Shown here: positions 8,407 through 9,682 of the stretch, in pieces | Layout of the letters: each line of letters starts with the position of its first letter | Position numbering within the stretch: position 1 is the stretch's first letter | Source of the DNA: a virus | Lineage: Duplodnaviria; Heunggongvirae; Uroviricota; Caudoviricetes | IMG/VR virus record: IMGVR_UViG_2526164631_000021 | Length of the DNA stretch: 14,800 nt | Strand: one strand, 5' to 3' | Notes under the pieces: model-generated | Database searches by the model: none | Told to the model about the DNA's origin: nothing | What the model saw: only the letters and a program-made list of their open reading frames with translations | Made by a program: the position numbers and the translations under genes

Positions 8407-9366
8407 ATGAAAATTTGTATCGACGACGGCTCCACCAACATCAAGCTGGCATGGACTGAGAACGGCGAATGCCGCAACGCCATCAGCCCGAACAGCTTCA
8501 AGTCGGAATGGTCTGCGCCGTTCGGTGGCTCGCAGCCTGCGAACTACATGCTTGATGGCGTGCGCTATGGTTTTGATCCGGTCAGCGATCGCTTTGTCCA
8601 GACGACCGACACGCAATACCAGTACAGCGATGTGAATGTAATCGCCATTCACCACGCGCTGGTCAAATCAGGCATCACACCACAGGAGGTGGATGTGGTT
8701 GTCACCCTGCCACTGAGCGAGTATTTCGACACAAACGCACAGCCGGACATGGCCAACATCAACCGCAAAAAAGCGAACGTTATGCGCCCGGTTGAGTACC
8801 AGAACGGTGAGGCATTCACTATCCGTAACGTGCGGGTTATGCCTGAATCCATTCCGGCAGGCTTTAAGGCACTGGCTGACATGAGTCCGTTTGAATCCCT
8901 GCTGATTGTGGATTTGGGCGGAACCACGCTGGATGTGGCAAAGGTTCAGGGACAACTGGCAGGTATCAGCCAGGTGTTTTGCGATCCACACGTAGGTGTT
9001 TCACTGATGGCCGATGCCGTGCTGTCGGTGATGGCCACTAACGGTATGCGCACCAGTCACCACATCGCCAATACCATTATTGAACATCGCCATGATGAAG
9101 CCTGGCTGCGCCAGCACATCCACAATGACGCGCATTACGCCAGCCTGATGGCGGTTATTCGTGAAAAGGAAGAAACACTGAAACAACGCGTGATCCGCGC
9201 GCTGGCGGGTTTTTCGGGTTACGGGCGGGTGATGGTTGTCGGTGGCGGGGCGGAGATTGTGGCACCCGCTATCCGCGAAGCCTGCGGAGTTAATGCGACT
9301 TTCATCGCGGACGGGGTGCCACAGTTTGCTCTGGTTAATGGGCTGTACGCAATGGACAAGGAGTAA
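8407..9366 (+). CDS. parM: ParM/StbA-family actin-like segregation ATPase
   Basis: Translation MKICIDDGSTNIKLAW...ISPNSFK...YSDVNVIAIHHALVKSG...VMPESIPAGF...LLIVDLGGTTLDV...GVSL...SGYGRVMVVGGGAEI...LVNGLY is co-linear with plasmid R1 ParM (StbA) as I recall it, including the phosphate-binding DDGSTNIKL and DLGGTTLD motifs. AAGGAAAAG RBS. Confidence 0.9.
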   Translation: MKICIDDGSTNIKLAWTENGECRNAISPNSFKSEWSAPFGGSQPANYMLDGVRYGFDPVSDRFVQTTDTQYQYSDVNVIAIHHALVKSGITPQEVDVVVTLPLSEYFDTNAQPDMANINRKKANVMRPVEYQNGEAFTIRNVRVMPESIPAGFKALADMSPFESLLIVDLGGTTLDVAKVQGQLAGISQVFCDPHVGVSLMADAVLSVMATNGMRTSHHIANTIIEHRHDEAWLRQHIHNDAHYASLMAVIREKEETLKQRVIRALAGFSGYGRVMVVGGGAEIVAPAIREACGVNATFIADGVPQFALVNGLYAMDKE

Positions 9367-9370
9367 GCCA

Positions 9371-9682
9371 ATGACGACACCAACCAGACGGATAAGTTTC
9401 TATCTGAAGCCCGCCGCCGTCAAGAACGAAGGCGAAGCATGCGCCTGGCTGGACAGCCTTACACCAGAAGCCCGCAAAAGTGGTCAACGCGTGGCTTTTC
9501 TGGCCGGGCTGGCACTACTGAAAATGAATCCGGCAGAGGCTTACCGACTGGCTGCATGGGCTGATGATGAGGCGTTATCAGTGACACAAACCAGGACAGA
9601 ACGCCCCGCGTCACAGCCAGTATCAGCCGCACAGATAACCAGTCAGATGGCCGGAAATATCCGGGCGTTATTTCCCGAATAA
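9371..9682 (+). CDS. parR: ParR-like partition adaptor (ribbon-helix-helix centromere-binding protein)
   Basis: Begins 5 nt after parM with an AAGGAG RBS; the track ORF starts upstream at 9236 and overlaps parM. The N-terminal ...RRISFYLKP...LDSLTPEAR...FLAGLAL resembles R1 ParR (...RTIAFKLNP...LDSIPQGERS...LTAGLAL...). The parM-parR order matches R1. Confidence 0.7.
   Translation: MTTPTRRISFYLKPAAVKNEGEACAWLDSLTPEARKSGQRVAFLAGLALLKMNPAEAYRLAAWADDEALSVTQTRTERPASQPVSAAQITSQMAGNIRALFPE

What the first reader, a model, noticed from the sequence alone, without database searches (positions are those of the whole stretch)
8407..9682. Intact plasmid-type parM/parR actin partition cassette inside an integrated prophage
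ParM and ParR here are co-linear with the plasmid R1 partition proteins, including the nucleotide-binding motifs of ParM, and keep the parM-then-parR order. An actin-like segregation system is expected on low-copy plasmids or phage-plasmids, not in a chromosomally integrating P2-type phage. Possible explanations are that the element, or a recent ancestor, can persist extrachromosomally; that the filament system has been repurposed, for example for positioning phage DNA or interfering with an incoming plasmid or phage; or that it is a hitchhiking module captured from a plasmid.
Basis: partly seen in the sequence, partly recalled or inferred. Interest (0 to 1): 0.7.

Follow-up and report, generated by a model that had tools for sequence, protein, structure and literature searches.

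The report
Actin-type partition genes in P2-like prophage
A chromosomally integrated P2-type (P88-like) E. coli prophage really does carry an intact plasmid-style ParM/ParR DNA-segregation cassette, but this is a common feature already noted in the literature, and its role in the phage life cycle has never been tested.

Summary
ParM (8407-9366) is a full-length homologue of plasmid R1 ParM with its nucleotide-binding motifs intact. ParR (true start 9371, ends 9682) is a StbB/ParR-family protein. The element is a P88-like (Xuanwuvirus) prophage in the chromosome next to pheA.

It is not new. PGAP and PHROGs annotate both genes. The cassette occurs in 1308 of 5426 complete E. coli genomes. Pfeifer 2021 and Rousset 2022 both noted it and proposed an episomal state.

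- The phage ParMs form their own clade. No plasmid ParM exceeds about 53% identity, so recent capture from a plasmid is unlikely.
- The order gpA, parM, parR, then portal holds in Escherichia, Salmonella, Plesiomonas, Hafnia, Serratia and Enterobacter.
- parM is under strong purifying selection (dN/dS 0.02-0.11), and 84 of 84 sampled copies are intact.
- The likely centromere is a pair of GGG-N10-CCC palindromes 72-73 bp apart, not R1-style iterons.

Of 1456 copies, 1454 are chromosomal. The best reading is a working partition machine for the transient extrachromosomal phage circle, expressed with the early replication genes. This is inferred, not shown. Interest is modest.

The parts
8264..8305 (+). 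Repeat unit 1 of the candidate centromere/operator. It contains the exact palindrome ACGGGA-N8-TCCCGT at 8280-8299 and lies inside the last codons of gpA.
   Evidence: 42-nt direct repeat, 81% identical to unit 2, start-to-start spacing 73 bp. These two are the only exact matches to the palindrome in the window, against 0.41 expected even allowing 2 mismatches. A GGG-N10-CCC site sits at -125 from the parM ATG, and at matching positions in Plesiomonas (-131) and Hafnia (-128).
8337..8378 (+). Repeat unit 2 of the candidate centromere/operator. It contains the palindrome at 8353-8372 in the gpA-parM spacer.
   Evidence: site at -52 here, -59 in Plesiomonas and -55 in Hafnia. The GGGA/TCC arms are largely conserved and the spacer varies among 55 distinct Escherichia-type upstream sequences, although a TCCTGT variant is common.
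8382..8390 (+). Conserved ATTAATCAA, a possible weak -10 element. The Shine-Dalgarno AAGGA follows at 8394-8398.
   Evidence: The same motif lies about 20 nt upstream of parM in the E. coli, Plesiomonas and Hafnia loci. The consensus scan finds no sigma-70 promoter in 8000-10000, so promoter function is inferred only.
8407..9366 (+). parM, an actin-fold ATPase of 319 aa (R1 ParM / StbA family).
   Evidence: Pfam StbA_N 2.3e-82 and ParM C-terminal domain 1.3e-68. PDB R1 ParM 3e-93 over the full length with motifs kept. PHROG 691 'partition protein'. dN/dS 0.02-0.11. 84 of 84 sampled copies are full length.
9371..9682 (+). parR, a centromere-binding adaptor of 103 aa (StbB/ParR family). It has a conserved N-terminal domain (RRISFYLKP...), a hypervariable linker and an invariant C-terminal N-I-x-x-(L/F)-F-P tail.
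   Evidence: Pfam PF10784 3.9e-24. PHROG 2515. Alignments. End-to-end collinear with ParR of IncI plasmid R621a at 22% identity, sharing the N-terminal strand and the NI(K/R)xLFP tail.
9688..9711 (.). 10-bp GC-rich hairpin directly after the parR stop. It marks the downstream edge of the cassette.
   Evidence: terminator-like on the minus strand, with no T-run on the plus strand.
5508..8330 (+). gpA, the P2-type rolling-circle replication endonuclease. This is the conserved upstream neighbour, and no plus-strand terminator separates it from parM.
   Evidence: Pfam Phage_GPA 5.5e-131. No plus-strand terminator-like site between 8000 and 8407. The order gpA then parM holds in every phage-type locus.

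Best explanation
This is a working type II (ParMRC-like) DNA-segregation module that belongs to the replication region of a lineage of P2-type phages. It is not plasmid cargo.

Proposed mechanism:
- ParR dimers bind the two GGG-N10-CCC palindromes, 73 bp apart, just upstream of parM.
- The invariant C-terminal tail of ParR captures ATP-ParM filament ends.
- Filament growth pushes sister copies of the circular phage genome apart.
- The cassette follows the rolling-circle initiator gpA with no terminator and no recognisable sigma-70 promoter of its own. It is therefore most likely made together with the early replication genes, after infection or after induction and excision.
- It then acts on the transient extrachromosomal circles. 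It spreads them between daughter cells before integration or lysis, and possibly supports their replication. This would parallel srpMRC in SXT/R391 ICEs and AlpAC in prophage CGP3.

What is shown: the homology, motif integrity, gene order, chromosomal location, clade structure, synteny, selection, and conservation of the paired sites. What is inferred: ParR binding to those sites, filament formation, the timing of expression, and the benefit to the phage.
For: ParM is about 50% identical to R1 ParM over its full length with all nucleotide-binding motifs. ParR belongs to the StbB/ParR family with a conserved N-terminal domain and an invariant C-terminal tail shared with a plasmid ParR. There is a gap in plasmid ParM identities between about 53% and 95%, and the few plasmid-database records above 95% contain the prophage itself. 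Every ParM at 54% identity or more lies in the order gpA, parM, parR, then portal in P2-type prophages of Escherichia, Salmonella, Plesiomonas, Hafnia, Serratia and Enterobacter. Every ParM at 53% or less lacks gpA and portal nearby. The phage ParMs form one clade (NJ bootstrap 149/200). dN/dS is 0.02-0.11 for parM. 84 of 84 parM and 82 of 84 parR copies are intact. The paired GGG-N10-CCC sites keep the same positions and 72-73 bp spacing in three genera despite different inner sequence. No plus-strand terminator and no consensus promoter lie between gpA and parM. In E. albertii the gpA-parM block (97-99% identical) is joined to an unrelated structural module (portal 30% identical), so the cassette travels with the replication module. 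Precedents: srpMRC is expressed only on SetCD induction and stabilises the excised ICE. AlpAC is early-induced and needed for efficient prophage DNA replication.
Against: No experiment exists for this cassette. The candidate centromere has only two sites, whereas the plasmid- and ICE-type loci examined here carry many short iterons upstream of parM. Two sites may serve only as an operator. The palindromes could instead be RNA hairpins: the region folds with z = -4.9, and a common C-to-T variant would keep a G-U pair. Serratia and Enterobacter relatives lack the GGG-N10-CCC pair and have long inverted repeats instead. Absence of a consensus promoter is weak evidence, and a conserved ATTAAT could be a ParR-controlled promoter active in lysogens. 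The AlphaFold model of ParR is low confidence (pLDDT 55). In this particular prophage the integrase is broken by IS679, so this copy probably cannot excise on its own.
Confidence: 0.5

Rival explanations
1. Phage-plasmid lifestyle. P88-like phages can lysogenise as stably maintained low-copy plasmids, alternating with integration, and ParMRC is the plasmid-prophage partition system. This is the hypothesis of Pfeifer 2021 and Rousset 2022.
For: It has been proposed in the literature. One PLSDB record, NZ_CP148288.1, is a 34,461-bp circular 'plasmid' that is a complete P88-like genome. A P2-like phage, KS14, is a proven plasmid prophage, though it uses RepB plus ParA. The phage-plasmid D6 uses a StbA-type ParM that is 48% identical.
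Against: 1454 of 1456 copies in complete E. coli genomes are chromosomal. All phage-type loci whose left end was recovered keep an integrase. The attP junction of the NZ_CP148288 integrase type is never contiguous in the 442 genomes that carry that type. The 'phage 520873' record is an extracted chromosomal prophage with a host gene at its end. The replication gene is a rolling-circle initiator in the repressed early operon, not a copy-controlled plasmid replicon (established P2 biology). A single circular record can be explained by spontaneously excised phage DNA.
Confidence: 0.2
2. Exclusion or incompatibility function. Resident ParR/ParM interferes with incoming related phages or ParMRC plasmids, as many cargo genes of the gpA-portal hotspot are anti-phage systems.
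For: The cassette lies in the gpA-gpQ region described as a defence hotspot. ParR is far more variable than ParM within Escherichia, with alleles ranging from 96% down to about 50% identity. That pattern could reflect diversifying pressure.
Against: There are no PADLOC matches for ParM, ParR or their neighbours. The cassette is the conserved inner flank next to gpA, not the variable part: downstream genes differ between lineages while parMR stays. The DNA-binding N-terminus of ParR and the sites are conserved among alleles, so the alleles do not define new specificities. Plasmid ParRs and their iterons are unrelated in sequence.
Confidence: 0.07
3. Action on the chromosome. The integrated centromere-like site plus ParMR moves or positions the host chromosomal locus, or otherwise benefits the host.
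For: Cassettes stay intact in prophages that are otherwise damaged. In this window the integrase is cut by IS679 and the terminase has indels. Phage 520873 has split gpA and integrase genes and an IS100 insertion but intact parMR.
Against: There is no evidence of expression in lysogens. The cassette shows no association with one chromosomal site, because integrase modules and att sites differ between carriers (pheA-side here, pdxB for others). The few damaged examples are anecdotal and recent.
Confidence: 0.05
4. Hitchhiking module recently captured from a plasmid, with no role for the phage.
For: It belongs to a family that is otherwise overwhelmingly plasmid-borne, with at least 5000 plasmid records carrying ParM homologues.
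Against: No plasmid ParM exceeds about 53% identity. The phage copies form a phage-specific clade with conserved synteny in six genera. dN/dS is 0.02-0.11, and 84 of 84 copies are intact.
Confidence: 0.03

Closest known systems
ParMRC (parA locus) of plasmid R1 / StbAB of R100: type II actin-type plasmid partition
   Same: ParM is collinear and about 50% identical, with all nucleotide-binding motifs. ParR is in the same Pfam family. The order is parM then parR, with cis repeats immediately upstream of parM. The ParR C-terminal tail motif is shared with plasmid ParR.
   Different: It sits in an integrating P2-type phage next to a rolling-circle initiator. Its ParM forms a separate clade, at most 53% identical to any plasmid copy. 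The upstream cis region has two 20-bp palindromes 73 bp apart, not arrays of short iterons around a strong promoter. No consensus promoter is present.
srpMRC of SXT/R391 integrative conjugative elements (Carraro et al. 2015, PMC4489591)
   Same: It is an actin-type partition locus in an element that normally lives integrated. It is paired with rolling-circle-type replication of the excised circle and is expressed only on induction. It was shown to stabilise the excised form and a test plasmid.
   Different: SrpM and SrpR are only distantly related to R1 ParM and ParR, and the carrier is an ICE, not a phage. The function is shown for srpMRC but not for the phage cassette.
AlpC/AlpA/alpS of Corynebacterium glutamicum prophage CGP3 (PMC4446434, PMC5539076)
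   Same: It is an actin-like protein plus DNA-binding adaptor encoded by an integrated prophage, with repeats upstream of the operon. It is early-induced and needed for efficient replication of the circular phage DNA.
   Different: It belongs to a different actin-like family, has the order adaptor then actin, carries 24 alpS repeats, and has a Gram-positive host. Homology to this ParM was not tested here.
Partition systems of phage-plasmids (D6 StbA-type ParM; P1/P7 ParAB; KS14 ParA)
   Same: These are tailed temperate phages that carry partition genes. D6 ParM is 48% identical. KS14 shares P2-type virion genes.
   Different: Those phages lysogenise as plasmids with plasmid replicons. This one has an integrase and is found integrated in more than 99% of cases.

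Membership tests
Type II (ParMRC, R1-type) partition system | Actin-fold ATPase ParM with intact phosphate-1, catalytic Glu, phosphate-2 and adenosine motifs | tested here: met
   Pfam StbA_N 2.3e-82 and ParM C-terminal domain 1.3e-68. Full-length alignment to R1 ParM structures at 3e-93, with DDGSTNIK, MPESIPAG, DLGGTTLD and GGGAE conserved.
Type II (ParMRC, R1-type) partition system | Small adaptor gene parR immediately downstream of parM, homologous to StbB/ParR | tested here: met
   parR at 9371-9682, 4 nt after the parM stop. Pfam PF10784 3.9e-24. Collinear with ParR of IncI plasmid R621a.
Type II (ParMRC, R1-type) partition system | ParR N-terminal ribbon-helix-helix DNA-binding fold | tested here: inconclusive
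   The conserved N-terminal 64 aa include an RRISFYLKP strand-like segment followed by helices. The AlphaFold2 monomer model has mean pLDDT 54.9. It predicts helices 20-29 and 32-52 but no confident strand. No PDB sequence hit was found.
Type II (ParMRC, R1-type) partition system | ParR C-terminal peptide that binds ParM | tested here: inconclusive
   An invariant N-I-x-x-(L/F)-F-P tail follows a hypervariable linker in 25 diverse alleles. It is also present in other genera and in plasmid R621a ParR. Binding itself cannot be tested with these tools.
Type II (ParMRC, R1-type) partition system | Centromere parC upstream of parM made of multiple tandem iterons flanking the par promoter | tested here: not met
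   Only two 20-bp palindromes, 73 bp apart, are present, and there is no consensus promoter. The plasmid and ICE loci L008, L009 and L043 show the many-iteron layout. A centromere of a different design is supported by cross-genus conservation of the paired sites.
Type II (ParMRC, R1-type) partition system | Stabilises an unstable low-copy replicon; ParM forms dynamic filaments | not testable with these tools
   This needs a plasmid-loss assay and polymerisation or imaging assays.
Phage-plasmid | Prophage maintained as an extrachromosomal replicon | tested here: not met
   The window matches chromosomal DNA beside pheA. 1454 of 1456 copies in complete E. coli genomes are chromosomal. No contiguous attP was found in 442 genomes carrying the other integrase type.
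Phage-plasmid | Plasmid-type replication initiator rather than an integration module | tested here: not met
   The replication gene is P2 gpA (Pfam Phage_GPA 5.5e-131). A tyrosine integrase is present, although split by IS679 in this copy.
Anti-phage defence cargo of the P2 gpA-gpQ hotspot | Match to a known or candidate defence protein family | tested here: not met
   No PADLOC hit for ParM, ParR or six neighbouring ORFs.
AlpAC-type prophage actin system | Early-induced actin-like protein plus adaptor required for replication of excised prophage DNA | not testable with these tools
   Only the layout is comparable, namely the position at the end of the early replication operon. Expression and phenotype need experiments.

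The most novel reading that the evidence does not exclude
P2-type phages of Enterobacterales carry their own ancient ParM/ParR clade, fixed beside the rolling-circle initiator gpA, with a minimal two-palindrome centromere. On this reading it is not a plasmid-maintenance device. It is an actin-based machine that positions or distributes replicating phage circles during lysogeny establishment or the lytic cycle. If so, it would be the first such system in an experimentally tractable E. coli temperate phage (P88 and phiSM both plate and lysogenise K-12).
Probability: 0.35. Interest if true: 0.55.

Novelty: already known. Interest (0 to 1): 0.3.

Why it matters
About a quarter of complete E. coli genomes carry this cassette, yet nobody has tested what an actin-type segregation machine does for a phage that integrates. 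If it handles the transient circular genome, it would link phages to ICEs, which use srpMRC in this way. It would also add a cytoskeletal step to the textbook P2 life cycle. Its two-site centromere would be a compact variant for studying how ParR-type adaptors capture ParM filaments. For genome annotation, the practical lesson is that ParM/ParR next to a 'replication endonuclease' marks a P2-type prophage. It does not indicate a plasmid or a phage-plasmid.

Tried and rejected
- PADLOC scan of ParM, ParR and neighbours gave no hits, so the defence reading has no direct support.
- PDB sequence search with ParR found nothing.
- The AlphaFold2 model of ParR from a 25-sequence alignment was low confidence (pLDDT 55). 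I ran no fold search because the matches would be meaningless.
- NCBIfam gave only sub-threshold hits for ParM and none for ParR.
- The promoter scan of 8000-10000 found no sigma-70 consensus site. By eye I found no Ogr-type TGT-N12-ACA late-promoter motif upstream of parM.
- Rfam found nothing at the palindromes, only isrK and C4 elsewhere.
- The attP-junction census with the integrase type of NZ_CP148288.1 found no contiguous junction. The junction of that circular record spans the record start, so the record cannot score itself. This window's integrase type is unrelated at the DNA level.
- 'Escherichia phage 520873' looked like a possible episome but is a linear extracted prophage with host yecA at one end.
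- L037, the Apirhabdus 44-kb plasmid listed at '62%', turned out to be a frameshifted R1-like plasmid parM, not a member of the phage clade.
- The IMG/VR scan returned only near-identical Escherichia copies. It was useful for the intactness count but added no new lineages.
- Several literature hits for 'ParM' were false matches to author names such as Parma, Parmar and Parmley.
- My first population script mis-registered seven copies because of indels. I redid it with an anchor search.
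Full report
**1. What is in the window**

The window is the left part of a P2-type prophage. Reading left to right:
- the end of an IS66-family (IS679) transposase at 11-529
- a tyrosine integrase on the minus strand (450-1448) that the IS truncates
- a repressor (1482-1799, minus strand)
- a plus-strand early operon ending in the 940-aa gpA replication endonuclease (5508-8330, Pfam Phage_GPA 5.5e-131)
- the two genes of the finding
- several small ORFs
- a non-coding gap (11342-11832)
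- portal and terminase on the minus strand

A sequence 99.93% identical over all 14.8 kb lies in the chromosome of E. coli FDAARGOS_1059, beside pheA/pheL.

**2. The observation**

ORF 8407-9366 encodes a 319-aa protein. It matches both Pfam ParM domains (2.3e-82 and 1.3e-68). It aligns from residue 2 to 316 with R1 ParM crystal-structure chains (E 3e-93). The DDGSTNIK, MPESIPAG, DLGGTTLD and GGGAE segments are conserved.

The second gene starts at the ATG at 9371, not at the longer TTG ORF from 9236. An AAGGAG precedes it, and RefSeq annotates the same start. It encodes 103 aa that match Pfam Plasmid_stab_B (StbB/ParR) at 3.9e-24.

**3. How common it is, and what is already known**

The 1441-bp cassette is found at 90-100% identity in 1308 of 5426 complete E. 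coli genomes. Of 1456 copies, 1454 are on chromosomes and 2 on plasmids. PGAP annotates the genes as 'plasmid segregation protein ParM' and 'plasmid partitioning/stability family protein'. The cassette is also in 14 phage records: P88, Xuanwuvirus P884B11, Citrobacter phiSM and others. PHROGs has 'partition protein' families for both genes.

- Pfeifer et al. 2021 listed P88 among putative phage-plasmids. [quoted passage not shown]
- Rousset et al. [quoted passage not shown]

I found no paper that tests the function.

**4. Origin: not a recent plasmid capture**

A tblastn search of ParM against 72,556 plasmids gave at least 5000 hits. Identities are either 95% or more, or below 60%. The records above 95% all contain the prophage itself; in the DNA search these showed 'replication endonuclease' beside ParM. 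The best true plasmid copy is 52.6% identical.

In a 5.8-billion-protein search the intermediate identities come from Plesiomonas (63%), Hafnia (62%), Serratia (57-58%) and Enterobacter (54%). In each of these the gene sits in a P2-type prophage in the order gpA, parM, parR, variable genes, then portal.

I then scored 42 loci with gpA, ParR and portal queries:
- Every ParM at 54% identity or more has gpA upstream and, wherever the contig extends far enough, a P2 portal downstream.
- Every ParM at 53% or less has neither. These are in plasmid or ICE contexts.

The phage ParMs form a single bipartition in a neighbour-joining tree, with bootstrap 149/200. That support is moderate.

In E. albertii, gpA is 97% and ParM 99% identical to the window while the portal is only 30% identical. 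The cassette therefore travels with the replication module, not the virion module.

**5. Selection**

Among Escherichia and Salmonella copies, parM has dN/dS of 0.02-0.11 at dS of 0.08-0.20. For parR the values are 0.13-0.48. In 84 sampled copies, parM is a full 319-codon ORF in all 84, and parR is full length in 82.

ParR is much more variable than ParM within Escherichia, with alleles from 96% down to about 50% identity. The variation is concentrated in a linker at residues 65-95. The N-terminal 64 residues and the C-terminal N-I-x-x-(L/F)-F-P tail are conserved. The same two conserved ends are seen in other genera and in ParR of IncI plasmid R621a, which is only 22% identical overall. This is the expected layout for a ParR-type adaptor: a DNA-binding domain, a flexible linker and a ParM-binding tail. 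The assignment of the tail to ParM binding rests on what I recall of the R1 ParM-ParR peptide structure and was not tested here. An AlphaFold2 monomer model was too uncertain to confirm the ribbon-helix-helix fold (pLDDT 55).

**6. The cis site**

Upstream of parM are two 42-nt direct repeats, 73 bp apart. Each holds an exact ACGGGA-N8-TCCCGT palindrome, at 8280-8299 and 8353-8372. These are the only exact matches in the window. The first lies in the last codons of gpA.

Reduced to GGG-N10-CCC, the window has only these two sites in 14.8 kb, at -125 and -52 from the parM ATG. Plesiomonas has such a pair at -131 and -59, and Hafnia at -128 and -55. The inner and flanking bases differ between genera. 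Position and 72-73 bp spacing are thus conserved across ParM divergence of about 38%. That argues for a protein-binding pair.

The Serratia and Enterobacter relatives have long inverted repeats instead. Plasmid and ICE loci have many short iterons. The centromere, if that is what this is, is therefore not of the R1 design.

An RNA-hairpin reading is not excluded for the E. coli sites. It fits the Plesiomonas and Hafnia sites poorly, because their stems would be only 3-4 bp.

**7. Expression and mechanism (inferred)**

No plus-strand terminator-like site separates gpA from parM, and no sigma-70 consensus promoter is found in 8000-10000. A conserved ATTAATCAA about 20 nt upstream of parM could be a weak -10 element whose -35 region would overlap palindrome 2.

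The simplest reading is co-expression with the early replication genes, possibly with ParR autoregulation. The cassette would then act when the phage genome is a free circle. This matches two studied cases:
- srpMRC of SXT/R391 ICEs is expressed only on induction. It stabilises the excised, rolling-circle-replicating element.
- AlpAC of prophage CGP3 is early-induced and needed for efficient replication of the circular DNA.

**8. The plasmid-prophage rival**

Stable plasmid carriage is not what assemblies show. More than 99% of copies are chromosomal. Integrases are present in the carriers examined. The attP junction of a second integrase type is never contiguous in the 442 genomes that carry it.

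The one good circular record is NZ_CP148288.1, 34,461 bp and a complete phage genome with an integrase. It could be an episome or simply excised phage DNA. The 'phage 520873' record is an extracted chromosomal prophage. I give this rival 0.2.

**9. Verdict**

The 'surprise' is already recorded in databases and in two papers, so novelty is low.

What remains open is function.
- a phage-specific ParM clade
- linkage to gpA across genera
- strong purifying selection on parM
- a conserved two-palindrome cis element

It also points to tractable phages, P88 and phiSM, for the decisive experiments.

Noticed in passing
window 11-529 (+) and 450-1448 (-); L001 1455-5156: The prophage integrase is split by an IS66-family IS679 element. 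A short C-terminal integrase fragment lies on the far side of the IS next to pheL. This prophage probably cannot excise using its own integrase.
   Followed up: partly
window 12879-14630 (-), differences at 13199, after 13896, after 14510: The terminase large-subunit gene carries three single-base indels relative to the 99.93%-identical copy in FDAARGOS_1059, where it is one 583-aa ORF. Two are in homopolymer runs, so they may be real frameshifts or sequencing errors.
   Followed up: partly
window 4579-4653 (+) and 4689-4776 (+): Rfam finds an isrK Hfq-binding sRNA (66.7 bits) and a C4 antisense RNA (81.1 bits) side by side in the early region. The large ORFs listed there look spurious.
   Followed up: no
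window 9746-10078 (+): Directly after parR lies a 110-aa protein that consists mainly of a ClpX-type C4 zinc finger (Pfam 8.2e-18) with no ATPase domain. It could modulate host ClpX substrate or adaptor binding.
   Followed up: no
window 9371-9682; L010 10965-11276: Escherichia carries several ParR allele families (103, 104 and 101 aa, down to about 50% identity) beside nearly identical ParM. All share the first ~16 residues and the C-terminal tail. In E. albertii the break from 99% to 54% identity falls inside parR, and the portal beyond it is only 30% identical. This is a mosaic junction within the gene.
   Followed up: partly
window 9688-9711: A 10-bp GC-rich hairpin lies immediately after the parR stop. 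It looks like an intrinsic terminator only for the minus strand. The two upstream palindromes also score as minus-strand terminators, because T-runs follow them on that strand.
   Followed up: no
window 7700-8330 (gpA C-terminus): gpA here is 940 aa. The gpA proteins of the Plesiomonas, Hafnia and Enterobacter relatives are shorter (785-835 aa; the Serratia one is 907 aa). The last codons of gpA overlap the first palindrome, so the tail of the replication protein and the cis site constrain each other.
   Followed up: no
L011 (NZ_JBQPOM010000071.1, 'Vagococcus sp. WN89Y'): A 226-kb contig assigned to a Gram-positive Vagococcus carries a 97%-identical ParM, an 85%-identical gpA and a 100%-identical portal. 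This is most likely an enterobacterial contaminant contig in that assembly.
   Followed up: no
L007 9411-10757; L006 11450-12084: The variable slot between parR and the portal holds different cargo in other genera: a KAP-family NTPase in Enterobacter and a HicAB toxin-antitoxin pair in Serratia. This fits the defence-hotspot description, while parMR itself stays fixed next to gpA.
   Followed up: no
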